Shown one piece after another: positions 6,741 through 50,459 of a stretch of 64,000 nt of DNA (the stretch's first letter is position 1; each line of letters starts with the position of its first letter). Made by a program: the position numbers and the translations under genes. The notes beneath the pieces are model-generated. The model did no database searches. It was not told the origin of the DNA and worked only from the letters and a program-made list of their open reading frames with translations. This stretch comes from Phoronis australis (lineage: Eukaryota > Animalia > Phoronida): the NCBI GenBank assembly GCA_002633005.1, contig NMRA01000196.1, forward strand, positions 145,632 to 209,631, in the 5' to 3' direction.

Positions 6741-7440
6741 TAGCTAAAACNCCTCGATTGTGTTAAGTCCGGTCGTCGTTTGTTTTTGGTTACTACTATA
6801 GGAGTCAGCCGACATGCCACACTGTTGCTGCGTACCGGGATGCAGTCATTATGGCCCAAAGCCTGTAAGCAGCCCTGCTGCGATGTTGAGTAGTGGGAGT
6901 GAATACAGGCCCAGTGAAGAGTACAGTTCGTCATTCAATGAACAGATCGGTGACCCAAACTTTGATAAGTTTATTGTGGACTTGTCTAAAGTATTGGAGC
7001 TATTTAAAAGGTGTCAGTTGTGTGGCGAGGGAGTCACACGGCGGGGTTTAAGTAGTTTGTGTGCTCAGGTCACTATCCAGTGAGATTGTGTCGCAGGACA
7101 CCGTGGCAAGTGAGACAGTTGTTCCTCTGTCCGTGAGACGACAATGAGTACATCCCGGTACGCAGCAATAGTGTGGCATGTTGACTGACCCGTAAACAAA
7201 TGCAAGGAAAGACCGAACTTATCACAACTGAGATAGAAAAAGGACTGACTCGGCAGCTCTCTCGGTCAGAATATATGAAAAAAATTGGCGCGAAATTCTT
7301 GCCTCCCATAACGTCACTTCCAGAGTAGAGAACGAATAATTAATTAAATTACGAAAAGCTGTAATTAAGTGGAAGACATGTCTGGGATAGCCAACGAACC
7401 TTTTTCGCTAAAAAAACATGAAAAAATGTTGCCTTCGCCT
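6741..7440. mobile_element. Rearranged Kolobok copy (right TIR plus inverted internal transposase fragment)
   Basis: 7280-7440 matches the TIR at 55780-55941 and is followed by TTAA (7441-7444). The THAP start (MPHCCCVPGCS) is present on + at 6814 and again on - at ~7149-7180. Confidence 0.8.
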
Positions 7441-7655
7441 TTAAGGCCATTTTTCCCTCGTGGGAGACATGTAGTTGTTACAACCAGTTTCGGGTGAAGT
7501 CACAAAAATAGGATCTACAATCGCTTAAAGAAAGCAGATGAATCACCACATGTGTTAATTTCCTAGCGTTTATACAAAACTGACGTAAAAGTTACTGCAG
7601 CATAAAAACAGTAGAAGAAACAGGTCTGATTAATGATTGTGCTTGTGAGCGTTAC

Positions 7656-10061: not shown

Positions 10062-12088
10062 ACGTTGTTAACCCTTATTAGTTGGTTACAGGGTGTTAAG
10101 AGGATCCAAGAAGTACCTACCCCATAACTAATACACAATCGGTAATCGAATAAAGCTTAAATAAACGCACCACTCACGATTCGCACCCGAAGAACACATT
10201 GCCATTTTTAATTTGCCGCGAACCCGGAAGTACAATTCATTCAGGAACCCAGGCTAAGAAAACGCCGTTAGTGCAACTGGAGCAGTGCCTGTTACAAGCC
10301 TGCAAACGGGGATATAACAATCGACAGCGCGCATTCATTTTAATCAAAATACATACAATTTTATCGAATTTGCTGAAGAAATGTGGCGAATCAATTTTGA
10401 CTGAAATTATTTTGCCGGACTCGGGACCGTAGGCTATCGGACCCGTTGCGGATCTAGCCTCCTGGCGAACAGTAAAGGCATTTTGCAAGTTTTTTTGTCC
10501 AAGTAAAATGTTCAAATCATACATGCCGTATATATTCAAAGGTAGGTTCAGACACTTGCATAAAATTACGGGCTGGTTAGTCGTGTGTCACACTGCCACG
10601 GTAGCCCTTGGCTAAGCCAGCCTCATCGCCAGCTACCAGTATGAAGACTACATGTATCTTCAAAGTACAGCTTGTTAGTAGGCCTATACAGCTTTGCGCC
10701 AAGGCTACCCTTAGGCGTACACTGTACCTGGTCGCTGGCCACAGCGCTCGCTCAAACGAGGTTTATTTAGAATTTGGGGTCTTCTGGCGACCTGTGCAAA
10801 GTTGTTGGCTTTCAACAGAGATTTTCCCAGACTTTGTTTGAGCGCACCAAGCCTAAAAATGGGGGGGCTGGAATTTTTGGGAATGTCTACCTTTTACTAT
10901 AAGATTTCCTGGGTATGTTCAGAGCTATGAATTGCAGACGCTAAATTTTGGTACTTCCTGTCTTCTAGTGGAATATTGCCTCGTTTTTCTACTTTTTTCG
11001 GAGTTCGTGCTTCTCTGACTGAGGCAGACCTTTTCCATTTCTCCAAATAGGGGGCTCGTTCGAGCACATCAGTATGACAAGTCCAATACAAAATTTTATC
11101 ATTTTTATTCATTAAGCCAAAATGATTCAACCTTTTACCATAATAAGTAACTTAAAATGCACAATACTATACAACATTTAACATTACAAACACAATCCAA
11201 CAGCAAAAGTTTCCATGATATGAAAGTGTACATACAGTCATGCAACTACATTGTATTACCATGGTGATCGAATAGTGCTTCCCTACACCAGAATTTGACA
11301 AGCATGATTTAAAAAATATGAAGTTGCACGGAACAAGAATTGGAAGCTTGAAGCTTCACAACCTAATATTGCTTATTTCTCATTTTCAAATTCTTCATAT
11401 TGTTGACTTGATAACCTGAATTAAGAAGCATTAAGTTTTAAAACATGACTTGAAAGCACTTTAGACTTAAAATTTAGAAAAATATGAATCATTTTGTGAC
11501 ACCTAATCAAGCCTTGAACAGCAGTTGACAGACAAACAAAAAACATTTCAAAATTATTTCAACTATTTTTTTAGCTTAGTGTAAGATCAACTGAATAGGA
11601 AATTCACAGTAAAGTAATTCGAATATACATGTATCTTATATTTTTGCACCAAAACACGAAAATTGTCCAAAGTTCCTTTTTGTAGCAACGTCTGTCAAAA
11701 TGTATCAACGTTAAATCTTCACAAATTACAAAGTAACTGGTCGAACACGCCTTCCACTTCAGCAAAAGTCGCCATGTTGTTGGTGCCGCCAACGGGAATT
11801 GTGAATACATTTATCACTTAATAAGTAACAACTGCGGGGCTGAAATTTGGTGAAAACTGTTGAATCGTGCAGAATAGTAAGTAAAGATATGTTTCACCAA
11901 ATTTCACCATAAATTGTTGGCGAAAACAATTTACACAAAGTTTTAAACTCGTAACTTATCCCGTTGTCTTCCAATATGGCCGACACGATCCAAACAAAGT
12001 GACCCAAATTTCGCCACAAAAATTGCAATAACATTACACTGCTTGCCTCGATTTTGATACTTTTTCGATTTTTTACTGAGTAGAATGT
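10062..12088 (+). repeat. Interspersed repeat family (unclassified), copy 1
   Basis: Collinear high similarity to 41567-42033 plus 44124-45628; embeds a fragment of the CATG-terminus MITE at ~10840-11070. Confidence 0.85.
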
Positions 12089-12619
12089 TTGAAATTTAAC
12101 CAATCCGTACAGTCCCTGTCATTGCTTTGCGTGGTGCAAACTCCTCCAGAGAATGCATAAAACCCAGGGTAATAGTGATGCATTGTTGTCATGCCCCTCA
12201 AGACTTACACTATTTCAGTTGTGACAATCGCCGATGCTTACTACATGTACTTCGTGTTTCTAGACGCATATTCGTTATCATGGCTTATGAAACATAACAC
12301 GACGGTTTTGTGCACCCAGGTGTGAAGACATAGATATAAAACAGTTTGTATATCAACTTGAAATCTTAGCTGCTGTACATTTCTGGCAGCTTCCGATTCG
12401 GAATCAGAAAGAATAAAAATTGAAATTTCTAGCACCCTACAAATAAATAAATGCATTTTTGAAGTTACAATCGCTATAAATAACATAAAGAATAAGACGA
12501 TCACAACCTTAGTCTATAAAATAAACGTCGATGTATCTTTCCATAGAGGTGACAAGTCTCGACATTTCCCTCGCCAATGCTTTCTCAGTTTTCTTCTCAA
12601 CACTTCTCAAACTTTGCAG

Positions 12620-13162
12620 TTATCGCAAAAGTTCGCAAAACAGGTCTTAAATATCATACAACTTTCTGGACCATTAGCTGTCACTCCAAAACAGTCCTAC
12701 AGTGAGGCTCTGTTGGATAGATTCTTCGTAGATAATGTCACTTCCGAACAAGAAGTGCTTCTTCGACACCATTTTTGGGAAAACTTACTAGCAAACCCCA
12801 TTCTGGAGGTACATATTAAACGAATGTTCGGAGAGATGCTATACCATTTTGGATGCATAAAGCAACCGCAGAATACTGAAAATCTGGGCACACTGAAAGC
12901 TTTTGTGGTGCTGGAAAAAGAGCCACCTGATGTAGCAAATGTTGTAGATGCAGTAAGAACAGAAAGACACCTAGGCGGCTTGGAGTCGATAGAGATATGC
13001 ACGTTTACCTGGCAGATTTTGTGTGGTCAGGATTGTAAGCCACCAGCACATGTTGTCCTTGGTAAGATGTACGAGATGGTAAGCGAAAAGCAATCACTTC
13101 CTTACCATTTTTGTGACTGTGCAAAATCTTGTGTGCACAAAAGTCACACACTCAACGAATAA
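12620..13162 (+). other. Unassigned ~180-codon open frame (possible exon or TE protein remnant)
   Basis: Preceded by a pyrimidine tract and CAG (12617-12619); protein-like composition; no family recognised and no ATG start. Confidence 0.3.
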
Positions 13163-18656: not shown

Positions 18657-18897
18657 AAAAAAAAACAATTGCAGGCGGTCTGATACACGTTGTATCAGAC
18701 GTGCGCAGGCCTCGCATGTGGGCCCATTGCACTGATCACCTGGAAATATTTTTGTGCTTTATTGATATATGGTTAAAACCGAGCTGAGGAGCTAGAAACC
18801 TGGCTCAAGGGTTTAGCAGTGTGACCTGGTGGGACTTGAACCCATGACCTCGAGTAAAGAAAGCGGGCACTTATCAACCAGGCCACACTGCCTCGCC
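18657..18897 (-). mobile_element. tRNA-derived SINE, copy 1
   Basis: Minus strand starts GGCGAGGCAGTG, with A-box TGGCCTGGTTG, B-box GGTTCAAGTCC, body and a T-run tail. Confidence 0.7.
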
Positions 18898-19704
18898 TTT
18901 TTTGATTTCTGACGGGCCTTTTCTCAGAGTGAAAGTATTTTTAACGGATTATTAAGTGCTAAACGTGGCACTTTTCTTCATTTTAAATCAGGTTTCTACG
19001 GTACCTCGAATATCCAACAGTATTCTGTAGTTGAAATGTTTGGGGGTTTCTGCGTCACTTACACAGACATGACTTTGGCTCACGAAATTTATACAGACTG
19101 CCACTTTATCTACAATTTTTATTAAGTGTACTAGACGGACGATTTGACAGTAGTGAAGAATTTCAGACTTCTCTGGAGACATTCAAAATTTCAGCAAATC
19201 CTTACGTAAATGTACCAATCCTCTTCGTCGACCAAAATTGTACTGTATTGCATTTTTAAGACTGCATCTTTAGTTACGAAGTGTGTATGCTTAAAGGTGT
19301 CCGCGTGTTTAACGAGGTTTCATTTACCTGCTATTTACATTTTTGAATAATTATGTGACCAAGTCTTTCCTGCTTCTTAACTGCACGGCTTGAAAGTCTA
19401 GAATGACATTATTCTGTCACCGTGGGCTCTGACTGAATTTGTTCCAGATAGCAATGTCAAATGAGTTCCGGGTATATTGATGATACTAATCACCAATGAA
19501 ACATTTTATCGTTTTTTTGTGATATTTTTATTGATATACATTTTGGGAATTTCTACCGGCGCTCAACCGGAACAAAATTTCAACAGCCCAACACCGAGTG
19601 TTTTTCAATTACAAACTATTTTGGTGTCATTTATCACATCGAATTGTTTTTGTCGTCCCTCGAATGCTAGCCTAATTTTGGGCGTCTTTTTTAATAATTG
19701 AAAT

Positions 19705-19935
19705 AATTGCAGCCGGTCTGACACACGTTGTACCAGACATGCGCAGGCCTCACATGTGGGCCCATTGCACTGATCACCTGGAAATATTTTTATGCTTTAT
19801 TAATATATGGTTAAAACCGAGCTGAAGAGCTAGAAACCTGGCTCCAGGGTTTAGCCTTGTGACCTGGTGGGACTTGAACCCACGACCTCGAGTAAAGAAA
19901 GCGGGCACTTATCAACCAGGCCACACTGCCTCGCC
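19705..19935 (-). mobile_element. tRNA-derived SINE, copy 2
   Basis: Same sequence as copy 1 at offset +1038, with about a dozen substitutions. Confidence 0.7.
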
Positions 19936-20501
19936 TTTTTTGATTTCTGACGGACCTTTTCTCAGAGTGAAAGTATTTTTAACGGATTATTAAGTGCTAA
20001 ACGTGGCACTTTTCTTCATTTTAAATCAGGTTTCTACGGTACCTCGAATATCCAACAGTATTCTGTAGTTGAAATGTTTGGGGGTTTCTGGAGGATTAAC
20101 GCCAGAGTGTACATTCACATGTATTTCGTCTGTAACAGGCTATCTAGTAATCAGTGGCATTTACTGAATAATATGGAATTGTTTTTTTGTTGCCTTGAAT
20201 GTTTGAGTTTTTTGAAGGGACCTTTTCAGAGTGCAATTTGTCTTATTTGGGTCATTCTGTATTCAGTGCGGCATGATACATGTAGTTAATTTTAAATCAG
20301 TTCTGACAGGTACACTGAAAAACAGATCTACAGATCGAATCTCGACGTTGGCCCCTGAGGATGGTCCCACTCGTCACACCCATAATGCACAGACCGACAG
20401 ACATTCAATACTGGATATGCCTGTAGCCAAATGTTGGTATGCTAAGTGGTTTACGCTTCCGGTCTTTATCTTTGACCGACATTATTTCAGATTTTAACTA
20501 C

Positions 20502-22966: not shown

Positions 22967-24150
22967 TTTATTTCCTCGCAAACAAAATGGGCATCAACAT
23001 AAAACATTGAATAATAAAATTCAGACTCTCAAAATCCAGAAAAAGACGATGAACACCTTCTCATTTGAAGTGAGCTTTTCTCAAATAAATGAGCTTCGAA
23101 AGATGGACTTAAATTGAATACTTAATATGCTATTGCCCAGACAACACCACACTTGCAAATTCATTAATCGGTCTATCCTATATATATAGAGGATATACCA
23201 CTCAAAAGAATAATATCAGTGGTATGTCCTATATATATATAGGATACGCTGACGTAAAACAATCAGTAAACCGGGAAATAAAGTTGAAACCCTTAAAACA
23301 TAAAATTGGCATCGTGCAGTGAATTTAATCCATTCTTATTGAGATTGACTTGCAACCACTCAGTTGATTAGTCGTGGCTGTTAAAGGACCCAGGTAAATT
23401 TGACATTTTGGCCACAGTTGCCACTGTTTAGGCGGTTGTAACGGAAAACGTAATTTGGTGAACCCCAATTCGCTTTGTAGATTCGCTGAAGTCAAAATCG
23501 ACATACATGTACAAACTATCAAAATTTTCAACGACAAATAAAATGTAACCCCTATTGTTATTTTTGATTATATAAGTAAGTGAAGGGATCAAGAATCAAT
23601 TGAATTAAAGCTGCATTTTGTCCCAGTTCAGCTGCCGACGTTTTGAATTGTTAACCGAAACGCTTCGGGGTTTAAAAACAATGCCGCACTCATTAATCTA
23701 GAGCTGTGTGAAGTACATGTATGCCGGCAACCGAAACCGCAAGCAATGCTTACATGCGCAATTTTCAAATCCGCAATGTAAGAGTTTGTCAAATCCAAGA
23801 AACTCTTGATCGTCGCAAATAACAGAAACAAATCCAGAACCATATCATAACAAGAAATATAATGAGAGTGATTTCAATGAGATTAAAACGTCGAATTTGG
23901 TATTCGTTTTTAGCCAAGTAACCGGGGCGAAATATAGCTTTACTAAATTAAAACCAAGACATAGAAGCAAGTTAAACAAGTTTTATAGAAAACATCATGG
24001 TCCTATTTCGAAATAAATAGTAAAAATGTGTAAACCTGATGAGATCACTGGTTGCTACACAAACGAACCTAAAGGAAAAAATAAATAATCATCTACTGTA
24101 CAGAATATATTGCGAAACAGGTTGTTGGCCACTATTTGACTCCCTAACGG
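22967..24150 (-). promoter_or_regulatory. Putative 3' UTR of the secreted cytokine-like gene, with AU-rich elements and poly(A) signal
   Basis: TTATTTATT nonamer at 24080-24088, TATTTATT at 24012-24019, ATTTATT at 23084-23090 and AATAAA at 22967-22972 (all minus strand). Confidence 0.5.
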
Positions 24151-24495
24151 TTAATGTAAGCCAACCGATTGGTTCAAAACGCAGTAACAGCGAAAGACTT
24201 CTTTGAACTCGTATAAAAAGTTGGCAAATTCGTCTAGTAATTTAGCGAAACAGAAATCATGGTAATTTCTTGTAACAGAGACCACTGCATATGTACTTTG
24301 CGGAAACGGTCGCTCATGAGCGCTTAGTGCTAGCTGAATACGGCATAACAGCGAAACGCCCACTCTCGATTCCAATGCTTGCTTCACCCGACGAAAGGTG
24401 TCACTGTTGTAGTCTGGTTCGCGCATCATTGCCGAGTCCATCCGACGGGCAAAATTAACTAAAATTTGGGTGGTCCCTTCCAGCGCTGACACCCG
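24151..24495 (-). CDS. Secreted Unpaired/IL-6-like helical cytokine candidate, coding exon 4 (last)
   Basis: Acceptor TCTCTTTTCTTTTAG|CGG, phase 0. RVSALEGTTQILVNFARRMDSAMM...VSLLCRIQLAL...RNYHDFCFAKLLDEFANFLYEFKEVFRCYC...GLH*; amphipathic helices. Confidence 0.85.
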   Translation of the reverse strand, partial: RVSALEGTTQILVNFARRMDSAMMREPDYNSDTFRRVKQALESRVGVSLLCRIQLALSAHERPFPQSTYAVVSVTRNYHDFCFAKLLDEFANFLYEFKEVFRCYCVLNQSVGLH

Positions 24496-26464
24496 CTAAA
24501 AGAAAAGAGACCGCTTTATCAGATTGGGAGAAGAAATGCAAATTACTGGCCCTGAATAAGAACCAGTTAGTTTCAAACAATGGTCGCTGAATCAAAAACA
24601 AACAGTTTGTACATTTACATGTGTCAGTGAGGAGCCTGTGGAGTGAAATTATCGGTTTGACGTCCTAAAACACATTTTGGCCGGTGATTTTTTATGGGAT
24701 AGACTGTTTGAAGTTATTTGCAATGACCAGAGTTAAATGTATATACATAAAACACGCTAGACGCGAGAGAGAAACGTAGCAAGCTGTGTTTTAAAGTCAA
24801 TGAATTTCATTACATTCCATTAATTACATGTATTTACAACTACCGTAAAGCATATGTCTGCGTCATAAAAAAGCCTGTGACAAGCCTATCCACAAGTGAG
24901 TAAACATTTGCAACATGATCGACATTTTCTCCAAAAGGATCTTCCAATTCATTAAACATTCGGCGATAGAAGGCGTAAGATCCGTATTGAATGTCAGTGC
25001 TACGTTCTGATTAAGCTTTACCGTATGAAGGGACCTAGACAAATATCCAAATTAAATGGCTGACTTCGGAAAATCGTAGCACGAAACAGCTTCAAAATAT
25101 TGTAAGGAATAGTGTTTGAAATAAGGGGCTATCCAAATATGACTTTTATCAATTTAAAAAAAATCAAAAGTTGCATAAAACTAAGTGATTCTTATGTCAA
25201 AAGAAATTTAGGTTCTTTGTCCTCCTATGAATGTACCTTTTCGCTAAACTGCACTAAAGTGCATGGTCACGTGACCAGATTAATGGCAAATGGTACAAAG
25301 TCAAGCATCAAATTCTGCAAGATTTCAAGTTTTAATACACTTTTACTCATTTAAGTTTATAGTTTTGAAGATTTTGTTCTAATACACAGATACATGTCCA
25401 CTATAATCTTAAACGACTATTTTACATAAGCGCTTAGTAATAAGTGTTCAATTAATGTCGTGTGGCTCCTCGCATCGGTTTATCCAACTGTCTTCAAAAG
25501 TCACACATCTCAGCAATCAGTCCTGTCGAACAACTTCAAGTATATTGTGTCATTACCTATTTCTCTAATGAACTGCATTAGGTGGCGATTAAAGTACCCA
25601 GGTCCACACTAAAAGTCGTCTTGCAACCCATCGCATTGCAATTATTGAAATACGTTGTTAAGTAGGAGACGGGGCTCCTTGGTACTCCTATGTCGCCTGC
25701 TAAATATTGCTCTCATCAAAATACTTATCGGTAAAGTAAGTTCAATATCCGAAGTCTAACATCCCTTTCTTGTGACTAGATGCACGACTTGGCCCTGTAC
25801 CCACATTTTGTTGTTGGCGCTTTACATCTGCTATCCGGAATTTCACGACCAGTAAAATAGTCTCACTGGTTCAAAGGCTTAGACAGCGATTTTGGGTATA
25901 TCTGACTCAAGTGACTGAGAGAAAGTTGAGTCCAGGTGCCAAAAAACAGTCCTGTTTCACCAATCTTACTGTACAAACTTTAGGCCATGGTAACAGAATA
26001 ATAAAGCATATATACTGTATGTGAATGGGAAACTTTCAACGAGGCGAATGATCACGTGGTACCGAATACTAGTGTCCTCTATAGGACGAGGAGGCGTTGA
26101 ACGTATCACGTCTAATCACATGCGCTACAAAAGGGTCTTTTCACCAAGTCGACATGTTCCCCTGTGCCACTACTAGAAAGTGGTACCTCCTGGTACAGCC
26201 CAAGTTGGTAATAAGCTTTCATTGCTTCCCGAAAGTCTTCCGACGGGGACTCCCAAAGTGTCGGCTCTTACCGCCATACACGATAACGATCTACTCTTGG
26301 TCCATCCACATCCAAAATACATGTACTGACAACAAGAACTACTTTTTCGACTTTACTAGGACAGGCGTTTTACTTCCCCAGTACAATTGAAAACAGTTTT
26401 TTCAGAAGTTCGTCTTAAGAGCGAGTGATGTGATGTTAAGCTTTCTACATGTACATGTACTTAC

Positions 26465-26560
26465 TTGTTGACTCCTTAGTTGGTTAAACGTTGACCTCCA
26501 GTTATAAGAAAGAGGACAGCGATGTTGAACACTTCGAAGAGACATGGGCGTCCGGCACTC
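26465..26560 (-). CDS. Cytokine candidate, coding exon 3
   Basis: TATTTTACAG|GAG...CAA|GTAAGT; 96 nt, phase 0/0; ECRTPMSLRSVQHRCPLSYNWRSTFNQLRSQQ. Confidence 0.8.
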
Positions 26561-28968
26561 CTGTAAAATAATTAAAAATTGTGAACTTGTGAAGGGTTCC
26601 TGTCGGTCACATACATGGATATGGTATGGCCATGTTAAGCTTCAAACACCGCTCCAGTGAGTTTCTCCGGCAAACAGGCCATGCTGGCCGACCGCGGTCA
26701 GACGTACATGTATATCGGGAGTGCAGACCGCGAATCGCATCAAAAATCACTAATCAATGCAAATTCGGCAAAATTAAAATTGTAGGAGGGCAGATCATGC
26801 AGTGATGATGTTCCGTAGCCGGTGGGCCTCAGTTGGCAGCGGCTAACGGCAGCAGTCATTGCACCACGTGCGCTCGGTGACTGACTGATGCACCAAGCGT
26901 CGGAATAGGACGGGATTTACATCTCTTAAGTGTGATCGTTATTCCCAATCCAGCAATAGGCATATAAAACCAATAACAAGTCAGCAAATTGTATCAGCCG
27001 ATTGCTAGCCAATGACCAAAGACTTCCCTTGATGAACTGGCGATGTACATTGGACCACGTAAAAAATCGACTGGGTGATGGAAATGTTTAACTTGGTAAG
27101 GATTAGGTTTTCCCGACTGATAAAATGTACAAAAAATACCGGTACATGTAGTAAATAGGGTTTTCACGGCGTCAACTACGTGCCACAATGCTCAGTTTTA
27201 TTGATTCACAGCAATCTTCGTCTGTGGACCATTGAACTTTTACATGTTGAGTCGTATTTTAAAAATTGCGGCACGTGGTTATGTACGGTATAAAAACACG
27301 GTGTACTCTGATGTTTGGAAACAAAACGTATTGGCTTTTACAATGGGTGTTATGCACGAAGCATCATGCATTATGAATTGCGCATTTTTTGAAAAAACAT
27401 GGCTCACTTCGGGTCAATGGGCGTGTTAAACCTGTTTGTGTCATGCTATATTTTGTTTTGAATAATAAGTATTGCATTCAGAGCTTTCAAAACATTATAA
27501 TAATGCAGAGCAAACAAAACTGATGTCAGAGATCAAAACAACTGTGTTAGCGATATTTAGTGAACATACATTTACAGATCCCAAATGTGCATTTATGTGT
27601 TAGATTATACTGAAAGGATTTANAGTGACCCGCCGATGACAATGCTGTAAAACGCGGTTTTGGACGCCTGCCGTCATCGGACGAAAAATAAATTAAAACG
27701 AATGGCATCTTCCAACAATACAGCGTATGATACCCGGCAACAGACATGTATGTTAAGGTACACAAATTGATCGATCAAGTGAAAAATACAACCACGACCA
27801 ATGTATTAGCCCATTATTCAAAGTTGGCCTGACTCTAACTAAATTAATGGAGCGAGGAGAAGTTTTAAACCGCAATACACAAATTTCACTGCTTCCGTGT
27901 GTTGTCAGCTATTTGTTCGGATGAAAAGATTTCCAAGGACTGGCAATTTTTACCAATCGGTATTACGGTAGCTGCCTTAAATGAAACACACCGCCACTTG
28001 ATAGACCCGACATGCCATTTAAGAAAATAACTTCCCCAACCAGGACACGGAGCATGTTCGTCTAAGCACATAGTTACATGTAATTTGCCATCTTTGTCAC
28101 ACAAACATTGATTGCAAGAAAAGCGTTTAATGCAACTTAAAATATTGTCTAAAACCACCGATATACGTAGAACAAGCTGGAAAAAAGTGCATGTCTGCCT
28201 GTCGAAGCATACATGTACAAATGAATATATGCTTAGATAAATGTCAGAGTACGAGTATCGATAGAAAAGCAGTGGAAAAATGAAGAAAGCACAGTCATCA
28301 ACTTTTCGCAAATATTTCTATTTCTTTTTTGTTGATAATCTAATCAAAACGGAACAGAGCGTGTGTCAAGTTAATAGCGCCCTCGTTTGTGTGTTGTAGT
28401 GCGCTGTACAAGAGTTACAGTGTAGTTAGTTCTACGTGTTTACATAAAGATACAGTTTACATATCAAATGAACGCAAAACTGTGTTCTCATGTTAGTTTA
28501 ATTTGCAAGTTGACAAGCTGTGTCACTTAGTACATGAGCGTTCTGTGTGTCGTTTCATCAACATTTTTGCGTCATGTTGCGTTATGCTACAAATTAATCT
28601 GCTTGCGATGTGCAGCATTCGCGTGCAGAGAACACTGGGTCATAAGAAGATAATCATAATTTTGTTTTTATTTCTGTTGTCATTATATTAGTAACGACTT
28701 AATTACTGGCGTTCATACTGTTGCGTGTAATGAAATACTTGGGCCCTGACACTAGCGCGTCAGCATTTGTATTGTACGTTGTAGGTTTTTCGTTATTGTA
28801 ACAGTCAAGCACAACCGTGAGCGCCACACGCCGCTACAGTGTGGCTTACAGAAACGTGCCCTCGCTTTCAACCATGGTTCTACTTAATTAAGCCTCAGAC
28901 TAGTCACCATCACTGGACAAATGCAGTCAAATACATAAGAGTTAGCTTACTGAAGCACCCGCACTTAC

Positions 28969-29207
28969 TACGATTCTTTTGATGTCTCTCAACTCCACGA
29001 TGAGATTGTCCACGTTCTGAATAAAAAGCGCTTTCTTTCGCCGAGTGCAAAAATCTGAAACGGAAGGTCCTTGCGCTGAAGCAACTCTTGACACGCTCGC
29101 TGGGATTCCCCTCGCGTAACATGGATTGTTCCAGTTAATGTTCGCTCGTTCATTTGAGTCCACTGTGCTCCAAATGCAAGAACCGGCTGCTGCCAGCAGT
29201 AATAGTC
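28969..29207 (-). CDS. Cytokine candidate, coding exon 2
   Basis: Acceptor ACTTTTATAG|GA (phase 1), donor GTA|GTAAGT (phase 0; in-frame alternative donor at 28950). LLLLAAAGSCIWSTVDS..NINWNNPCYARG...KALFIQNVDNLIVELRDIKRIV. Confidence 0.85.
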
Positions 29208-29290
29208 CTATAAAAGTTAACAAAGTTCTCGTTATTTGCGAGTATCAGTGTGAACTCTGGAGCCCAACTTGAATCAAAAAATAGGCTTAC

Positions 29291-29300
29291 GCAAGCACAT
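29291..29300 (-). CDS. Cytokine candidate, coding exon 1 (ATG TGC TTG C)
   Basis: ATGTGCTTGC|GTAAGC. An 83-nt phase-1 intron restores the frame to give signal peptide MCLRLLLLAAAGSCIWS. Exon 2 has no in-frame ATG of its own (upstream TGA). Confidence 0.75.
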
Positions 29301-31657
29301 TCAATCCTTTGCCATTTGGTTAGATGGATTCTAACAGAGCTGTGTTCAATCTTGTATGCACATAGTAGTGTTTTCTGATGATCGGAAGAATTAAGCACTG
29401 CTTTCAAAATTAACATTGCTTTCCCTCCCCCGACCAACAATACAATTTCAATTGCAATCTAACAACATATTCTTGGTATAAAGCAAAATGTTTTTGCAAC
29501 AAAAATGACAACGAAAGGTATCCAGTGTAAAGGCTTTGCATGCCGACTTATCCTCAAGGACACGGGGGGGTAGGGCGAGGAGATCAGTTTAAAGGTGGGT
29601 TAAATGCATCTGATCATTTTTTCTAAAAATTAACATGAATATTTGGCATTTACACTCCTGAGACGACAGCAACCAATCAATTTTCTTTTTAAGCAAATGA
29701 GTTGTGTTATGTGATTCATTCACCATCTCGACAGCTAAAGTGTGTTCATTTACCAAAAAGGCTACACATCACACTTCAATTGCACTGTACCTTTCAGACC
29801 CATAGTTCCAGACTGCCGATAAGAATTTTGTTAGGTTCAAACAATTCGTTGATAGATGATTAGCAATAAGATGAATAATTTTAACTCACCAATTTATAAC
29901 ACGTCGAATTTCCTGGTTTCTCTGGAAAAAGCACATATCCTTAATGAGTCTTGGAATAGTCAAAAACACAAATTTTGATTAATCTAACTTGCCATTGGCC
30001 AAAGTCTGAAGCCAGCAACGTGAACAAAAACAAAAGCGTCGGTGATGTGATTAGCAAAATATCAACCGAAACACCTTTTGAATTACCTTAACAACTTTGA
30101 AGCAGCTTTATACAGAAGTCCTTTCCTCTTCCCCGCCTACGTTTGGCGACTCAGAGGTACAATGTACATGTAGGCGTGCATGGAAATCCAAGGGCCAAAT
30201 TGAGTGGTCGTCCATGGGAGAGTTTAGCACCTTGCTGTTTACTTTCAAAGCTACATGTACATGTACTGTTACCCGAAGCAGCTAACTTATCGATGCGACA
30301 AGACAACTGTACAAGCATCGCGTTTCTACAGGTATTTTCTGGTCATCCCAACAATTATTTTCATCAGGAAACTACCTTTCCTCGCCAATTTCCCATTAAT
30401 GTTATTGTTTTAGACCGTACATGGCTACTTATGTCGTCATAAAGGTCCACTAGTGCTTTGACAATTCACTACTATCAACAATGAAAGTGAGTCTACTTTC
30501 GTCGTCATGTTGTTTTGGGAATGAGACAGTGCACACCGTGCACAATGCCCTTGGCTTATTTCATAAACAATTCTCACGCAGACGTATTTATTCAGTGGAT
30601 ACTTGCAACATGGCATGAATGACTGATAACCATCCATCGCTTTCAATTACTGATGTTTTGGTGTAGTACAGGTGTATAGAGAGTAATTGATAAAAGTTCT
30701 TACATTATTGGTCCATGCGGTATTTGGATTATCTGCGTCACGAGCCCAGACCCAAATAAGAAAAGTAATCTTTAAAATTCCCGCTATATGCTCTAAGAAT
30801 GTTTGTTTTAAATAATTGCAATCGGCCAATCGCAACTATATATTGTGTAGATTTTCAGGAGCTACCAGCAAATATCCATTTTATTCAAACCAACGCGGCA
30901 GTTTTGGTTGACTTGAAAAATCCCGAGATTAAATAAGGGATTATGTGGATTTACTGCATGGAACAATCACAAGTTGTGATACGAAAACTGTTTTAAGCCA
31001 CGGACAAAGCATGGCATCCACACTAAATTTAACACGATGAAGTATGGCGATCTTTTTCCTCAGATGTAGGAAACGGGACGGGGGGAGTTTGTCAATCGAT
31101 AAACATCGCTATCATTGGAACATTTCGTAAATTACAGTCTTGCAGGTATTATTTTTTAGTGGCGATTCCCAAAAATGAAGCTTCAAGCTGTTCGAGCAGT
31201 AGCGGTCATTTCGCTGGTGCATCCCCCGGCCAGAAAGATATCTAAAAAAAACACTGAATTCAGTTTGTTTTGAATTCATTTTGAATGAAATCGGTAAGAG
31301 CACGATTTGGGTACAGGCTTTGACTAGATGGTTTTTTGGGTTAATTCGTTTGGTTTTTAATTTGGAAGAAGCGACTGGGGAATCGTTAAAAAGGAAGAGA
31401 ACAAAAATCAAATAATACCAAGAGATGGAGAGAAAGACACTGAGCAGGGGGGAAATCCATTTGTGGTAACTCGAATTACATGCCCTTCATTCACTATCTA
31501 GGCATAGATGTTTGTTCTTTCCAGGTTTTATTATACTCAGAATTACATGCACAGATGGAACAGTTTTTCTCAATCGTTGCGTCTGGAGTCGCGATTGATG
31601 CCGTTGGATGATTCGAACGTTTGTACAGCTGTACTGTCATATAACTCAATGTCAACT

Positions 31658-37112: not shown

Positions 37113-38084
37113 TCAATTCGGCGGTGGTACTACATTGATAGTGATGATCGAACGAAGTACAGTGAGGCGTAAAATTCTGAATAACCCAAACAAAACTGAC
37201 ACTATGTTTTTAGTCATGAAGAAAAGTCCTGAATAAGGAATGACACCAAAGAAAATGATTGCAGAAACACGCAAAACGGCGAACGGCAGATTCATTAAGA
37301 AGATGGACGATAATATTAAAATAACTTCACTGGTTATGTTTTCCGATGGAGGATTAGAAGCTTGCGGTTCTACGTATCCCGGTGAGAAAATAGACGTGGA
37401 CGCTTTCCTTTGAAGGTCAGGGTCATCTTGCTTGAATTCTACTCTGTCCGAGCCAATGATAAAAGTAAACTGCAGCATACTTAGTGAAAAAAATCCCAAA
37501 ACTGCATTGACGAATCTTGCATCGGTAACGGAACCTTTGTAGTTAAGTAAATCCAACAGTTCCAATATATCTGCGCATGTAAACGCTTGCAATAGCCATA
37601 GATTCGATAACTGCCGGTCGCTAAGGTGACGCGTAGGTAACAGCCATCTAGCGAAGACCACCAACAAAAGCGTTGAACTCTCGAGAATGATTGCCCATCG
37701 CCGCAAAGGCATGGTAACTATTCCCTCAGCACCAAATACATGGACTCGATGCGAAGATTTAAAATTGAAATTTCCAGAAATCTGGGCTTGTTCTTCCACT
37801 TTGGTCAGCTCCACGAGCCAAATAGAAGGCAATACAGCTAGCAGATACAATAGGAAATTGGGACAAAACCAACTTTTCCACTCTCGTCCGTGAAACGCGA
37901 ATATGACGACTAGCAATTCAAATATGAGTCCAGGAAGTGGAAACAAAGTCAACGACCACCATCTTGATGCAATGTGGTGTCCTTCATAAAACATTAACAG
38001 AACTATGCCACCGTGAAGAATAAAAAGGGTTCGGGTAAAGAGAGTTCCAAATAAGACAAATCCTTTCGTGTCACGTACACCCAT
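37113..38084 (-). CDS. TMEM26: TMEM26-family multi-pass membrane protein, single coding exon, 323 aa
   Basis: Family motifs TRTLFILHG, GREWKSWFCPNFLLYLLAVLPSIWLVEL, ARWLLP, LSNLWL..ADILE, SLSMLQF, PFAVLR and FFMTKN; intact ATG-to-stop ORF. Orthologue vs paralogue is unresolved. Confidence 0.9.
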   Translation of the reverse strand: MGVRDTKGFVLFGTLFTRTLFILHGGIVLLMFYEGHHIASRWWSLTLFPLPGLIFELLVVIFAFHGREWKSWFCPNFLLYLLAVLPSIWLVELTKVEEQAQISGNFNFKSSHRVHVFGAEGIVTMPLRRWAIILESSTLLLVVFARWLLPTRHLSDRQLSNLWLLQAFTCADILELLDLLNYKGSVTDARFVNAVLGFFSLSMLQFTFIIGSDRVEFKQDDPDLQRKASTSIFSPGYVEPQASNPPSENITSEVILILSSIFLMNLPFAVLRVSAIIFFGVIPYSGLFFMTKNIVSVLFGLFRILRLTVLRSIITINVVPPPN

Positions 38085-42033: not shown

Positions 42034-44123
42034 TGACCTATCGCCAGGATTATGACGGACGGCTTAATTGACTAATCAGAACGCAGCATTCTTGGCACAC
42101 CTTCGTCTGTGTTTCCAAGTCGCCATTTTAACCGACAAACCACACGTAGTCGAGTAAAACTTACTTTAGTCTTTAGCTCAAGAAATTGTCCGCTAAGAAT
42201 GGGGAAACGGTGATAAGGCGTGTATAGCACCGACAGCCGTTATGCTGCTCCAGAATAATATCCCGTCATTTTTTGGCATGTCCTAAGACGAAAATGATGT
42301 TGAAAAATGTAAACTATGGATCAAACTGTACGGCCACACGAGCAGCTGAACTTAGCGATGTTGCTTGCTAACTCGAAGGCTATAATAAACACAAATATAT
42401 TAGTTCAAAGATACGCACTTTTCAGCTTGGTGGTCATGGTGCAGGGCTATCTCAGATTTTGACTCCCAAGATTCCTACGTCTGGCCGCCTTTGTCTCGGC
42501 GCCTGATGGATCTCAGCACTCTAGCGGTAGTCCCCGGAAATTGTTGTTTTCAAGGACATTTCTATTTCATGTTTTTTTATTTATTTCAACCTAATGGACA
42601 TTATTTTGTTTCGTATCAGAGGTACATTTTTGTTATTCATAAACAGTAGGCTGGTGTTCAACTGAACTTCTCTCCCGGTCAAAATTCATAGATTCGATCG
42701 GCACAGGGAAGGGCACTGGATTACTGCCGGAACTCAAAGCCTTGGTCGAGCTGTTGTCACTAAAAATAAACTGTTGAATTACTTTTTGACGTGTACCTCT
42801 AGTATACACTATGTCTGTAAAGTTAGAGAGAGCTCATTTTGAAGTTGTTCAAATATGATATTTAGATTTATGAAGCATTAAAAAAGAATTTGAGTTATTT
42901 TTGTAAATACCCTATTTTTGCAACTACCACACCAGACTTGTAATCTTTTGTAACAATACCACGACTTAGTGATCATGCTACCTTCAAAATTAAATGGAAG
43001 CTACATGTACCTTTATGGAATAAAACTACAAAAAATGCCAAGTTCATAAGAAGGTACGCCTAATTTAAATGTCTTAATTGTGCAAACAGACAATTCCATA
43101 GGCGGATCTGGGGGGGGGCAGGGACCCCAGCCCCCCCTTTTTGGCTGCCGCAAGCAAAATGAAACAAGAAGAGCGGGAAGCGTGAGGAAATATTGAGTTC
43201 AGTAACTAGGACCGGTAGCGGAAGAGGGGGGCTCAGACCCCAGATCGCGGCGGAATCGTGTTCCTGTTGTTTTAGTCCACCGATAGATTTTCTGAACAGA
43301 AGGTCCAAAGGTCTACATCCCTGGCCCCTGCAACTTTCGGGCCGCCTGTGCGCATACAATCGCATTTTGCTCAATTCCACGAGGCAACATATGTTGGGCC
43401 CCCCTGTGGTGTTCTAGATCCGCAACTGAATTCCAGGCATTAATTTGACTTAGACACAGCCCTAGACCTACCGGAGCTAACTGTTTGCCTAGGACGAGAC
43501 GAGTGTGTACCTGAGCTATGAACTTGAATTTTTTATCAAAATATTTCGTTACAAGATTAGAAAAGCGTAAACAGTGCTATCGATTCGACCTAGTCAGAGA
43601 CTATAGTGCATGTGTTGTCTGTAATCTATGACTTACTTTACTCCAGGAGTCCCACCAGAGTTGTGACCTACTTTTCATTTGGCGAATTTTAGCAGACGAC
43701 AGAATAATAATATCGGTGAATCTTCACTGATTTTATTCGAAAGATCATGAAATCTATGGAATCGTACAGATAATTCGACTTTAAGGTACATACCCAGCTT
43801 TACATGAACATATCGTATCAGTGGCCTTGTCATTTGTCAGGTGAAGGTTGCCCCGAGGCCAAGGGTTTCTTCGGATTTTCGCTGGCTCATCGAGCACGTA
43901 TTTTTTCATAGTCACCTTTACAAATTCCCATATCATGAACTTACGATTCTCTGTTGAAAAGCATCGCCTCTTGCCTCTGTCGAAGCGTTTTCAAATAGTG
44001 CAAAAACACTCATCGATACCTCCAGGAACGTCGTTTAGCGACAGTGTATTTGCCTCTGACATCTCGTTCGATTGTCGGGTATCACGTGAATTTTAGCATA
44101 GGAGCGGAGCTTGCGATAGGTCA
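42034..44123 (+). mobile_element. ISL2EU-like DNA transposon derivative
   Basis: TIR TGACCTATCGC/GCGATAGGTCA with an AT (or AATT) TSD shown by the empty paralogous site. Decayed THAP N-terminus at ~42199-42410 (MGKR..STDSRY...EKCKLWIKL..RPHEQLNL..KHKYI). Possible convergent second-ORF start near 44060 on the minus strand. Confidence 0.7.
43097..43428. mobile_element. MITE with CA-terminus GCGGATCT TIRs and 5-bp TSD, nested in the ISL2EU-like element
   Basis: AATTC|CATAGGCGGATCT...AGATCCGCAACTG|AATTC; relatives at ~1421 and ~3110-3246. Confidence 0.75.
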
Positions 44124-46866
44124 ATTACGGGCTGGTTAGTCCTGTGTCACACTGCCGCCGCAGACCTTAGTTAGCCTCAGTCAGCAGCTACATGTACCAG
44201 TGAAGACTATCGTCAAAATACAGCTTGTTAGTAGGCCTATACAGCTTTGCGCCAAGGCTACCCTTACAGGTAGGCCTAACTGGTCGCTGGCCACAGCGCT
44301 CGCTCAAACGAGGTTTACTTAGAACTTGGGTACTTCTGGCGAACTGTGCAAAGTTGTTGGCTTTCAATAGAGATTTTCCCAGACTTTGTATGAGCGCACC
44401 AAGCCTAAAAGAATGGGGGGGGGGCTGGAATTTTTGGGAATGTCTATATTTTACTGTAAGATTCAGTGGGTCTGTTCAGAGCTATGAATTGCAGACTCTA
44501 AATTTTGGTACTTCCTGTCTTCTAGTGGAATATTGTCACATTTTCTACTTTTTTTCGGAAATCGTGCTTCTGTGACTGAGGCAGACCTTTTTCCAGTTCT
44601 CCAAAAAGGGGGCTCGTTCGAGCACATAAGTATGACAAGTCCAATACAATATGTTATCATTTTTTATTCATTAACCCAAAATGATTCAAACTTTTAACAT
44701 AATAAGTAACTTAAAATGCACAATACTTTACAACATTTAGCATTACAGCACTATTCAACAGCAACAGTTTCCATGATATGAAAGTGGACATACATGTAAC
44801 TATTACCATGGTGACGGAATAGTGTTTCCTTACACCAGAATTTGACAAGCATTATGAAGTTGCAAGGAACAAGAATTAGAGGCTTTAAGCTTCACAATCC
44901 AACATAGCTTATTTCCCAAATTCATATTATTCATATTGTATGTTGACTTGATAACCTGAATTAAGAAGCAATAACTTACAAAACATGACTTGAAAGCAAT
45001 TCAGACTTAAAATTTAGACAATATATGAATCACTTTGTGACACCGAATCAAGACATGAACAGCAGTTCACAGTCAAACAAAAAACCGTTTCAAAATTATT
45101 TCAACTATTGTTTAGCCTAGTGTAAGATCACCTGAATGGGAAATTTACAGTAAAATAATTCGAATACATCTTATATTGTTGCACAAAAAACACGTAAATT
45201 GAACAAATTTTCTTTTTGTAGCAACGTTTGTCAAAATGTATCACAATAAATCTTCACAAATTACAAAGTAGCCGATTGAACATGCCTTTCAGTTCAGCAA
45301 AAGTCGCCATGTTGTCGGTGCCGCCAGAAATGAAACGAAGTCCAATGGGAATTGTGATCACATTTATCACTTAATGAGTAACTGAAATTTGGTGCACACT
45401 GTTACATGTAAATCGTGCAGAATAGTAAGTAAAGATATGTCTAACTAAATTTCACCTTAATTTGTTGGCAATTTACACAAAGTTTTAAACTCGTAATTAA
45501 TCCCGCTGTCCTCCAATATGGCCGACGCCATCCAAACAAAGTGACCCAAATTTCACCACAAAACTTGCAATAACTTTACACTGCTTGCCCCGATTTTGAT
45601 ACTTTTTCGATTTTTACTGAGTAGAATGCACTACCTTTCCGATTATTGCAAAGTACTTTTTTATAACGAGAAAAAATAAAACCAAAAAATAGGTTCGACC
45701 AAAATTGGTTCCTAGGTTCGACCGGCCTACGTAAGGGACTAAACTCCAATGCTATTTTAAAATACTAAGTACGCGTAACATTCCAAAAACATCAACGACC
45801 ACTAACTACGAACTATAAATACACTACATATGCAAACGAATCACGAGATATTACTTACAGAACAAAATAATGAAGACTTTTCGAGCAAACGATAGCACAT
45901 TCAGTTACAAGGAAAAATGGCGGCTTTCAGGACAAGTTCCTGAACTGATGAGCCGGAAATGTGGGTACGGAAATAACCGATGATAACCGGTAATCATATG
46001 CTCAGAGAGAAGGGTCAAATACTGTTCAAAATCGCTTTTGCCTTCCACTAAAATCGAATAATATGAGTTCAAATTCAGGGACAAGTTTGAATCTATGCAC
46101 TGGAACAATTTTGTTATGATGAACACTGGGTCATTTCTCTAGTTCTTTGGGTTAAGGCCGGCGGCAAGTTAAAAAGTCCACTGAGTTTGGCAGCCTAGCT
46201 CCTCCACGGCGCGTTCCTAGCAAAGAAGCACGGTTTATTTCAAAAAAACTCTACTCTGACGGCATGTAATTGTCCATGTCTCGCACGCGCGGCGTGTCTT
46301 CACAGTGCGTGCATGCACTCTCATCGAATCGTGCATCACCACCCACGTCGACGCTCAGCGTCCTCTCGCAAGACACCTCACCTTTCCGACTTCTCTTGCA
46401 CGCGCACATTTTTCTGCACTGAATCCTGAAGCTGAGTGTGGTGATGGCTTCGCCTAGGACTTCGCGCACTCAACTTAATTTTTTGCAGATGGACAAACGG
46501 CTCAGTTCACCATTTCACCACCAACTTTCACATGGTCAAACATAGAATTATTTTATTCTTAGTCTCGCTTCAACATCTGTATCAGCTGGTACAGCACTCT
46601 CGATTGCCCGGTTACGCAATGTTTGTTGACAGTGTTAGCGTCCTTGTATAAGCTCCGCCCCAGTTGTCAGTCACTGAGCTGGTGAGCAGTCAAGCCACAT
46701 GACTTACTTAAGCTTGGTCAAATATAATTTAAAAAAAACATCTTTGGATTTTCAGCCAATAATTTTATTTTTCTTCATTATACTGTGCATCAAGAGATAA
46801 AGATTAGGGTGAAATAAAAATGTAAAAGAACAGTCGAAATTATTTTTGTGTATCCACCTACCTTAA

Positions 46867-47932: not shown

Positions 47933-49334
47933 CTTAAGAAAAGTGTATATGTTACCTACTTAAGACCTAGTTGTTCACAAAAGTATCAAATAGTAAGCAG
48001 CATAGTCTGTTTCCATCAGTAAGCGCACTGTGTGTGGAAAACCTTGTAGCAAAAATACTGAGACCGACGGCTTATTTTCTACGTTGAAAATACTTTCACT
48101 GAAAATGTTGTGATGTCCTAGACAATAGGCAAGTATTTCATTACTAAGGAACATCTAATATTTTGTACGAAGACAACATCCAAACCCGCTAACGGATATG
48201 CAAATGTCTGGTGTTAGTGGTAATTATTCCTTATGAACGGAGTGGAAATATAATATCAAAATACATGCATGTACTACTCTGAACACAGACTTTCAAAATT
48301 CGTTTGTTGGTGGTTTTAAAAGATAGATAATCATCACAATTAGTGAATATTGCTTAAAGCATAGAAGTCACATTCTGTATAAAATGAGTCGTGGACAGAT
48401 TATGACGAACTCCCCAGCGGTCAGCCTTTCATAGTCAATAACTGACCGCTCAATTGACTACCGCGCACCTCATAGACTAAGAACTGTACTGTACAAAAGA
48501 AAGACCAAAAGCAGTCGGTTCTGGAATGTTTTTAAAAATCAAGGCGGTGCAGCGTTATTTGTATTTGGTCGCTCACTTTTTCAAAAATGAAAATCAATCT
48601 GAAATGAGCACAACTGGTACGAGATTAAACAGTGTTAACCGTGATGTTTGCTGGGGGTAGACAGCCAAATGACGTCGTATGGAAGTTGCAAGCTATTGTA
48701 TAACTTGTGAGATCCAAGCGACTGTCGTAAGCGCGTACCATGGTTATGGCCTATGGGAAGCTACCATTGTTTCCTTTGTTGCGTCTTTGTTGGATATACT
48801 GTAATAATACAGGTTGCACAGATATCGTACATTGGGCGCACATCAGCCGGTTACCGAAAAATCCTTACCAAGTAAGAAAGAAAAGCAAAGTGAATAATGG
48901 ATTCGCCTATCTACCGATATCTACATGTATGCGACGAGCTTGCGACCTTGTTTCCCGTGGGAAAGCCCAAACATTTGGAGGTCGATTGCTGATGGCAATG
49001 CGTTCTGTTTCTCAATATTGAACTTGAATTTGCTCTAGCAAATCATGTATCTTATAATTCTAATGAATGTGATCAGGCTATATCGACACTATCCCAGTGT
49101 AATGCTACAAACAGCTAAAATGTCATTTTGACAAGATTGAAATTAACCGCAGTATTTTCAGATTTTACTCCTAATTTGTGTTTCACGATACAATTTAAAG
49201 TGGCTTGGGACGCTAAAAGCAGACTAAAGTGCACTATTCAAAGTCACTCTCTATCACTGAAACAGAATTCAACCTGCTAACTAGGTATTTCTTACGGTTT
49301 GCTCATAAAGACTTTTAATTTCGGTTGATATTAA

Positions 49335-49436
49335 AGGCGAAGGCAACCTTTTTCCATGTCATTTTGAGCTAAAATAAGGTTGGTTGGCTATCCTAGACAT
49401 ATTTTCCACTTAATTACAGCTTCTCGTAATTTTGTT
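49335..49436. mobile_element. Solo Kolobok TIR fragment
   Basis: TTAA|AGGCGAAGGCAACC...CGTAATTTTGT, then TNTAA; ~100 bp nearly identical to the TIRs of 54258-55941. Confidence 0.8.
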
Positions 49437-50459
49437 NTAAAGCACCTTTCTTTTAGTTTCAAATTTTAACAAACGATCTGTCAACTGCTCGTCACTTCGT
49501 CGATGTTTTTCCGTCAAGGCAAATCACGTCTCCTAATTTGGTATGGCAAGAAATACATATAGACATAGGACATTTCACACACAAGGAAAATGTGACCTTT
49601 AACCTTTAATTTCAAAAAACGATGGCGACTTAAAGACATACGGTCCGAGCTATAAAGGAAAAAAACTCTTAACGCCGATTTAGCCGTTTTTTGTATGACA
49701 TCAAGTTCAAAAAGTTATTAACTTTGCACGCGCGCAAAAAATGATCAGTGGATTCCTGGTTTTATTTTCAAGATTGACGCAAAAGGCTATATTAGCAGGC
49801 GACAGAACAATGATTGATTGAAATCTCCAAGATAGGGTTTAGTATCCATTTATATATCATTGAAATATATACCTTCCGGTCAATGCAAAAATTCACCAAG
49901 GCATCTAAGTCCCCCAGCACTCAGTTAAAGAGAATGTGTTTTCAAAGACCAACATGTTCACTGACTTTCAATACAAGTTATTTACGCGGAATTAATCACA
50001 AGCGCGCTGAGAGTGCTGGCACGCAACGTGCTATCAACGGCAGTGATAGACAACCTATTTATGACTGGAAAACAAGGTTTCTTTCCACAATGAAATCGAT
50101 TGTTCCTTCAACTATTCCCAACAACTCCTAGAATTTTCTCCATGACGTGAAAACTGATAGCTGACTGATCGGACGAGAGATTGATATAAACATGCACCTT
50201 CAAAAGCCCAAATATAGTCAGCTTCGTGAATTACATAAAGGATGGTGACTTTCACAATCTGTCAATATGTTGGTTTTCAGAGCGTTGCCTCCAGATCGGT
50301 GATTACCATATTTTTGAGGTCTGAAAACCAAAATAAGGACCTTGTCGTATAATATTCAACTTTACATTTTCACTATGATAATTGCTTGCAAAGACTTTAG
50401 AAACCTGTTTGTGGCATATCTTTATTGGCCAATTTCAAACCTTTCATGGTACTGATATT

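What the first reader, a model, noticed from the sequence alone, without database searches (positions are those of the whole stretch)
24151..29300. Hidden 4-exon secreted protein that looks like an Unpaired/IL-6-type class I helical cytokine in an invertebrate
SEEN: four minus-strand exons (29300-29291, 29207-28969, 26560-26465, 24495-24151) join via canonical GT-AG sites into one 690-nt frame (229 aa). The ORF track shows only pieces. Protein: MCLRLLLLAAAGSCIWSTVDSNERANINWNNPCYARG...KALFIQNVDNLIVELRDIKRIV/ECRTP...NWRSTFNQLRSQQ/RVSALEGTTQILVNFARRMDSAM...FRRVKQALESRVGVSLLCRIQLAL...NYHDFCFAKLLDEFANFLYEFKEVF. It has a signal peptide, no TM, and four long amphipathic helices with long loops after the first and third. 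KNOWN (recalled): WxNPC near the N-terminus, LCxI/E at the end of helix C and a D-x-x-F-x-K start of helix D are the few conserved features of Drosophila Unpaired-type JAK/STAT ligands. A tiny first exon with a phase-1 intron followed by phase-0 introns is the gene architecture of IL-6/IL-11/LIF/GH-type cytokines. INFERENCE: this is a ligand for a Domeless/gp130-like receptor; such ligands are poorly characterised outside insects and vertebrates.
Basis: partly seen in the sequence, partly recalled or inferred. Interest (0 to 1): 0.88.

Follow-up and report, generated by a model that had tools for sequence, protein, structure and literature searches.

The report
Candidate invertebrate IL-6/Unpaired-type cytokine gene
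This is a spliced, weakly expressed invertebrate gene with no detectable relatives, whose protein is predicted to be a secreted four-helix signal of the IL-6/Unpaired type and would be a candidate for the missing trigger of JAK-STAT signalling, although its fold is untested and its start exon is unsettled.

Summary
The gene is real. The four exons join at GT-AG sites into one 229-codon frame. Seven RNA reads in 2 of 4 runs span intron 3 on the correct strand. One correction: the only two fragments that reach the 5' end carry an unreported 32-nt exon (29921-29890) and skip the proposed ATG exon, which has no reads (read from bin depths). That isoform has an in-frame stop just before the signal peptide, so the start is unresolved. 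The cytokine reading rests on anatomy: length, a hydrophobic N-terminus, four predicted long helices with long-short-long loops, introns in the signal peptide, after helix A and before helix B, and recalled Unpaired-like motifs. No search found a homolog, Pfam family or matching fold, but only single exons could be submitted, and the exon-4 model was poor (pLDDT 42). A strict FxxK motif is absent. Verdict: likely (about 60%) a long-chain class I helical cytokine; family membership is unproven. Earlier scan notes report similar candidates in annelid, octopus and ascidian DNA, and this one shows no sequence link to them.

The parts
29890..29921 (-). Unreported 32-nt upstream exon (U2), spliced to exon 2; carries a TAA in the cytokine frame two codons before exon 2; preceded by a further exon (79 nt or more in X1) that was not located
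   Evidence: bin depths decoded (X1 both mates, X2 one mate); AG acceptor and GTGAGT donor in the sequence; no depth at 30028-30500
29301..29315 (-). 4-codon upstream ORF in strong context (A at -3, G at +4) whose TGA abuts the proposed start ATG
29291..29300 (-). Proposed ATG exon E1 (10 coding nt, phase 1, GTAAGC donor, 83-nt intron); plausible in DNA, no RNA support
   Evidence: nearest of 13 such mini-exons in 34.8 kb; depth 0 in 3 of 3 runs
28969..29207 (-). Exon 2: hydrophobic core of the likely signal peptide, N-terminal extension with WNNPC, predicted helix A ending at the exon end
   Evidence: reads; AF2 fragment, pLDDT 79, helix at residues 40-82
26465..26560 (-). Exon 3: predicted A-B loop with Cys85, Cys98, two prolines and a short amphipathic stretch
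24151..24495 (-). Exon 4 coding part: predicted helices B (119-140), C (147-174), an 18-residue C-D loop, helix D (192-226), stop; one N-glycosylation sequon (N223)
   Evidence: intron-3 joint, 7 reads; AF2 fragment, pLDDT 42
22967..24150 (-). 3' UTR of about 1.2 kb with one AU-rich nonamer (24088-24080) and AATAAA at 22972-22967
   Evidence: read depth down to about 23250; (1 nonamer, 0.13 expected from the window's density)

Best explanation
The locus is a transcribed, spliced animal gene whose product is likely a secreted long-chain class I helical cytokine of the Unpaired/IL-6/LIF kind that would activate JAK-STAT through a Domeless/gp130-like receptor. Inferred steps: an ATG first exon (E1, or the unlocated upstream exon) or a non-AUG codon opens the frame; the N-terminal 20 or so residues are removed as a signal peptide; helices A (exon 2) and B, C, D (exon 4) fold up-up-down-down, with exon 3 as the long A-B crossover; disulfides likely tie the WNNPC extension to the end of helix C (C33-C166) and the A-B loop to the start of helix D (C85 or C98 to C197); the basic protein (pI about 9.6) would stick to matrix and act locally. 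Output is likely kept low by 5' exon choice, an upstream ORF and an AU-rich 3' UTR.
For: Shown: open 229-aa frame over canonical junctions; intron 3 spliced in 7 reads, minus-strand RNA; low and uneven expression (about 21 and 17 reads in X1 and X2, none on exons in X3). Predicted: one long helix ending exactly at the end of exon 2 and three long helices in exon 4, giving loops of about 32, 6 and 18 residues; 8 of 8 prolines lie outside segments 58-83, 116-140, 147-174 and 193-220. Length 229 is within the 150-280 aa filter used to find lamprey IL-6, which BLAST also missed (PMC13081863, passages). [quoted passage not shown] WNNPC arose in the first 45 mature residues of 8 of 200,000 shuffles and LCx[IL][QE] in place in 474, both together in 0 (patterns recalled and chosen after seeing the sequence). 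CpG o/e 0.87 fits an invertebrate. Precedent for AUG-less alternative first exons that still yield secreted protein: human LIF-M (PMC538256, passages).
Against: No homolog or family support: 0 hits spurious repeat protein among 1.84 billion, no cytokine Pfam hit on any exon, none in PDB sequences. The amphipathicity test is weak (46 of 1000 shuffles reach the observed score) and helix C has a low hydrophobic moment (0.12). AF2 runs the exon-2 helix from residue 40 through Pro51, longer than a usual helix A. There is no FxxK and no intron between helices C and D. E1 has no reads, a weak exon-side donor (-0.3 bits on an approximate matrix, against 4.3 for U2), poor start context and an abutting strong uORF. 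The observed U2 isoform, read from its first in-frame AUG (Met89), would lack the signal peptide and helix A.
Confidence: 0.6

Rival explanations
1. It is a real secreted, cysteine-bearing, mostly helical lineage-specific protein (matrix, gamete-recognition, pheromone or defence type) that is unrelated to class I cytokines; the motif likeness is coincidence picked out afterwards.
For: No sequence, profile or fold link to any cytokine; weak amphipathicity statistic; no FxxK; a phase-1 intron in a signal peptide is common among secreted proteins (general knowledge).
Against: Helix order, long-short-long loops, exon boundaries at the end of helix A and the start of helix B, and cysteine placement all fit one known architecture at once. 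Class I cytokines are routinely invisible to sequence search (PMC13081863).
Confidence: 0.25
2. The gene is a cytokine-derived or other coding locus whose normal transcript is non-productive or non-secreted: the U2 isoform is decay-prone or makes only a 141-aa intracellular product from Met89, and E1 is not a real exon.
For: 2 of 2 informative 5' fragments use U2 and skip E1; U2 has an in-frame stop; exon 2 has no in-frame ATG. Human LIF-T is an intracellular precedent (PMC538256).
Against: Exon 2 keeps a 79-codon open frame with an intact hydrophobic leader core and coding-like GC; two fragments from probably uninduced tissue cannot exclude an inducible first exon.
Confidence: 0.1
3. It is a helical cytokine of another class (short-chain class I, or class II interferon/IL-10 type).
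For: All-helical secreted protein of about 200 aa; interferon homologs were recently reported in lancelets (10.64898/2026.05.30.728932, passages).
Against: That preprint defines interferons by five helices, five exons and phases 0-0-0-0; this gene has phases 1-0-0. Predicted helices of 22-35 residues are too long for short-chain cytokines (general knowledge).
Confidence: 0.05

Closest known systems
Drosophila Unpaired 1-3 and Aedes Upd-like (Domeless ligands)
   Same: Likely secreted, one sequon, basic; WxNPC near the N-terminus, LCxI[QE] closing helix C and an RNxxD[FW] entry into helix D are recalled as Upd features and occur here in that order. Upd is secreted, glycosylated and matrix-associated (PMC3772116, passages); Upd-like ligands share only about 30% similarity even within Diptera (10.1101/2025.09.21.677592, passages).
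   Different: No Pfam Unpaired hit on any single exon; no alignment to an Upd could be made; at 229 aa it is shorter than fly Upds as recalled; the host looks like a non-insect invertebrate (inference).
Vertebrate gp130-family long-chain cytokines (IL-6, IL-11, LIF, OSM, CT-1) and G-CSF/GH
   Same: Length, leader, four long predicted helices with long A-B and C-D loops (topology described in PMC7378365, passages); intron in the signal peptide, after helix A and before helix B; an N-terminal cysteine with a partner at the end of helix C recalls LIF/OSM (recalled).
   Different: Three coding introns rather than four (PMC13081863); no FXXK, which is over 95% conserved in LIF/OSM/m17/CT-1 (PMC9601804, section 14 part 1); no sequence similarity to solved structures.
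Human LIF alternative first exons D, M, T
   Same: Alternative 5' exons without an in-frame AUG spliced onto a common exon 2 that holds most of the signal peptide (PMC538256, passages).
   Different: Only an analogy; translation of the U2 isoform here is untested.

Membership tests
Long-chain class I helical cytokines (IL-6 type) | Length 150-280 aa (PMC13081863) | tested here: met
   229 aa
Long-chain class I helical cytokines (IL-6 type) | N-terminal signal peptide, no TM segment | tested here: inconclusive
   Hydropathy peak at the N-terminus only; no SignalP run; the start codon is unresolved because E1 has no reads
Long-chain class I helical cytokines (IL-6 type) | Four long helices in up-up-down-down topology | tested here: inconclusive
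   Helices predicted on separate exons; the spliced chain could not be folded, so topology was not seen
[not shown]
   Only a pLDDT-42 three-helix fragment could be searched
IL-6 gene proper | [quoted passage not shown] | tested here: not met
   One in the leader and two in the domain; none between helices C and D
LIFR-binding subgroup (LIF, OSM, CT-1, m17) | FXXK at the N-terminus of helix D | tested here: not met
   No F..K match in the protein; F196 and F198 stand 4 and 2 residues before K200
Unpaired family | Match to the Pfam Unpaired profile | tested here: inconclusive
   No hit, but only single exons of 20-114 aa were scanned
Unpaired family | WxNPC, LCxI[QE] and helix-D motifs in order | tested here: inconclusive
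   Present in the sequence, but their status as Upd hallmarks is recalled and no Upd sequence could be fetched
Unpaired / gp130 ligands | Binds a Domeless/gp130-type receptor and activates JAK-STAT | not testable with these tools
   No genome held, so the receptor was not found; needs experiment
Interferons (class II) | Five helices, five exons, phases 0-0-0-0 | tested here: not met
   Four coding exons, phases 1-0-0 (definition)

The most novel reading that the evidence does not exclude
It is the JAK-STAT ligand of a non-arthropod invertebrate lineage that joins Unpaired-type motifs, a LIF-like disulfide tether and an IL-6-like exon plan, a bridge showing that Upd and vertebrate gp130 cytokines are one ancestral family, and its output is gated as in LIF by AUG-less alternative 5' exons.
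Probability: 0.3. Interest if true: 0.8.

Novelty: new member of a known kind. Interest (0 to 1): 0.55.

Why it matters
Dome/gp130-like receptors and JAK-STAT are widespread in animals, yet their ligands are known mainly from insects and vertebrates. A 2025 paper states that leptin and IL-6-family cytokines had not been identified outside jawed vertebrates (PMC12284397, passages), and lamprey IL-6 was found only by structure in 2026 (PMC13081863). A concrete, expressed candidate with mapped exons makes the missing-ligand question testable in this animal by expression, receptor binding and STAT phosphorylation. The unexpected 5' exon also warns that the obvious gene model may not be the basal transcript.

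Full report
Observation. On the minus strand they measure 10, 239, 96 and 345 nt, each intron starts GTAAG and ends in a pyrimidine tract plus AG, the phases are 1, 0, 0, and the joined frame is 690 nt or 229 aa with one stop. The protein has its only strong hydrophobic window at the N-terminus, eight cysteines in the presumed mature part (33, 57, 85, 98, 166, 197, 218, 220), one sequon (N223) and a pI near 9.6. Exons 2-4 are 46-48% GC against 39-40% for introns 2 and 3. The window has CpG o/e 0.87, 48 copies of TACATGTA against 1.9 expected, and a TMEM26 and a THAP ORF. This points to an invertebrate animal; the phylum was not determined, and a marine lineage is only my recalled association with that repeat.

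RNA evidence. Three raw RNA runs carrying the same species label and one contig run were laid on 23000-30500, reading about 18-19% of each raw run. Intron 3 is spliced exactly as predicted in 2 reads of X1 and 5 of X2, from 7 distinct starts, with first mates on the plus strand, which means minus-strand RNA in a usual stranded library. Exon 4 and about 0.9 kb of 3' UTR have depth 2-3 in X1 and X2; X3 has no reads on the exons and X4 laid nothing. The UTR holds an AU-rich nonamer at 24088 and AATAAA at 22972. Intron 2 did not reach the 3-read threshold; one X1 read appears to stop at the exon-3 acceptor (47.7 nt in a bin that holds 47 exon bases), which is suggestive only.

A finer lay on 28901-30100 found 4 reads, apparently 2 fragments. 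The tool listed no joint (below threshold), so the following is my arithmetic on 40-nt bin depths. Both X1 mates cover exon 2 up to 29206 and then 29889-29922; one X2 mate covers 29889-29921 and the other lies inside exon 2. Allowing for one ambiguous G, this is a 32-nt exon U2 (29921-29890, AG acceptor, GTGAGT donor) spliced to 29207. All three U2 reads run on for 20 or more unlike letters, so a further exon lies upstream; 30028-30500 has no depth. The proposed ATG exon has depth 0 in 3 of 3 runs. U2 carries a TAA in the cytokine frame two codons before exon 2, exon 2 has no in-frame ATG, and the next in-frame ATG is Met89. E1 remains plausible: it is the nearest of 13 ATG-plus-GTRAG phase-1 mini-exons in 34.8 kb, and the chance of one within 100 nt is about 4% (post hoc). 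Against it are a weak exon-side donor, poor start context and a 4-codon uORF in strong context that ends on the base before its ATG. Three readings stay open and can coexist: E1 is an inducible first exon; the unlocated exon holds the ATG and U2 is a frame-shifting cassette (in that frame translation would stop inside exon 2); or the U2 isoform starts at a non-AUG codon. Human LIF offers a precedent: LIF-M lacks an in-frame AUG yet yields secreted and intracellular protein, and LIF-T yields an intracellular one (PMC538256, passages).

What the protein is. The spliced chain could not be submitted to the folding or profile tools, so exons were tested singly. Exon 2 from residue 22 gave a short extended start and one long helix at residues 40-82, ending at the exon boundary (pLDDT 79; an isolated helix is easy to predict and runs through Pro51). 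Exon 4 gave helices at 119-140, 147-174 and 192-226 at low confidence (pLDDT 42). This is a long-short-long loop pattern (about 32, 6 and 18 residues), with all 8 prolines outside the four core segments I chose. Long loops between helices are what the up-up-down-down bundle requires (PMC7378365, passages). Support from amphipathicity is weak: 46 of 1000 shuffles match it, and helix C scores low. The motifs WNNPC, LLCRIQ and RNYHDF occur in the order recalled for Unpaired proteins, and the first two together arose in 0 of 200,000 shuffles, but the patterns are recalled and post hoc. [quoted passage not shown] An earlier scan note describes a four-exon annelid candidate, which I could not check.

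Searches. No relative was found: searches were blank or gave chance hits, and fold searches with the poor exon-4 model were uninformative. This neither supports nor harms the cytokine reading, since lamprey IL-6 escaped BLAST and mosquito Upd-like is only about 30% similar to fly Upds (10.1101/2025.09.21.677592, passages). It does leave the fold and the family untested.

Mechanism. Shown: transcription, strand, intron 3, low and uneven expression, and an AUG-less 5' isoform. Predicted: helix layout. Inferred: secretion, four-helix fold, a C33-C166 tether and an A-B-loop-to-helix-D disulfide, matrix binding through basic charge as for Upd (PMC3772116, passages), signalling through a Dome/gp130-like receptor, and inducible control. 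I give this 0.6, an unrelated secreted helical orphan 0.25, a non-productive or intracellular product 0.1 and another cytokine class 0.05.

Novelty. If right, it is a new member of a known kind. Papers read state that IL-6-family ligands were not found outside vertebrates (PMC12284397; PMC8226699; passages only), and nine searches listed no paper on such a ligand in a non-arthropod invertebrate (listings only). This scan has already noted candidates in annelid, octopus and ascidian genomes (unchecked AI notes), with no look-alike stretch to this gene. The finding deserves moderate interest: a testable candidate with a corrected gene model, not a demonstrated cytokine.

Noticed in passing
window 37113-38084 (-): Single-exon TMEM26-family ORF (Pfam PF09772, E 1e-45), the nearest recognisable upstream gene on the same strand; divergent (0 of 6507 candidates at E<=1e-20).
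   Followed up: partly
window 54999-55685 (-), with related stretches at about 6750-7450, 49330-49440 and 54250-54410: THAP-domain ORF (E 2e-15) with 80-96% similar dispersed pieces; likely relics of a THAP-bearing DNA transposon.
   Followed up: partly
window 60790-62187 (-): 465-codon open frame with a cysteine-bearing N-terminal part, one TM-like stretch and a long Ser/Asn-rich tail ending in a helical, charged region; no Pfam hit. Possibly part of a receptor-like gene.
   Followed up: no
window 12362-13162 (+): 266-codon open frame with no Pfam hit, next to a 1.5-kb dispersed repeat (10564-12087, 85% like 44123-45628).
   Followed up: no
window 18663-19052 and 19701-20090: 390-nt near-identical duplicate (96%) containing a stretch that looks like a tRNA-derived SINE head by eye; ARAGORN and Rfam found nothing.
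   Followed up: partly
window 57651-57923 (-): Cysteine-rich stretch with a weak Tesmin/CXC match (E 0.001, below cut-off), perhaps a transposon-associated fragment.
   Followed up: no
window 28951: A second in-frame GTAAGC donor 18 nt past the exon-2 donor would add six residues after helix A; no reads cover it.
   Followed up: no
window 23052-23190 and 26129-26162: Short repeats that attract many partly fitting RNA reads from elsewhere in the genome.
   Followed up: no
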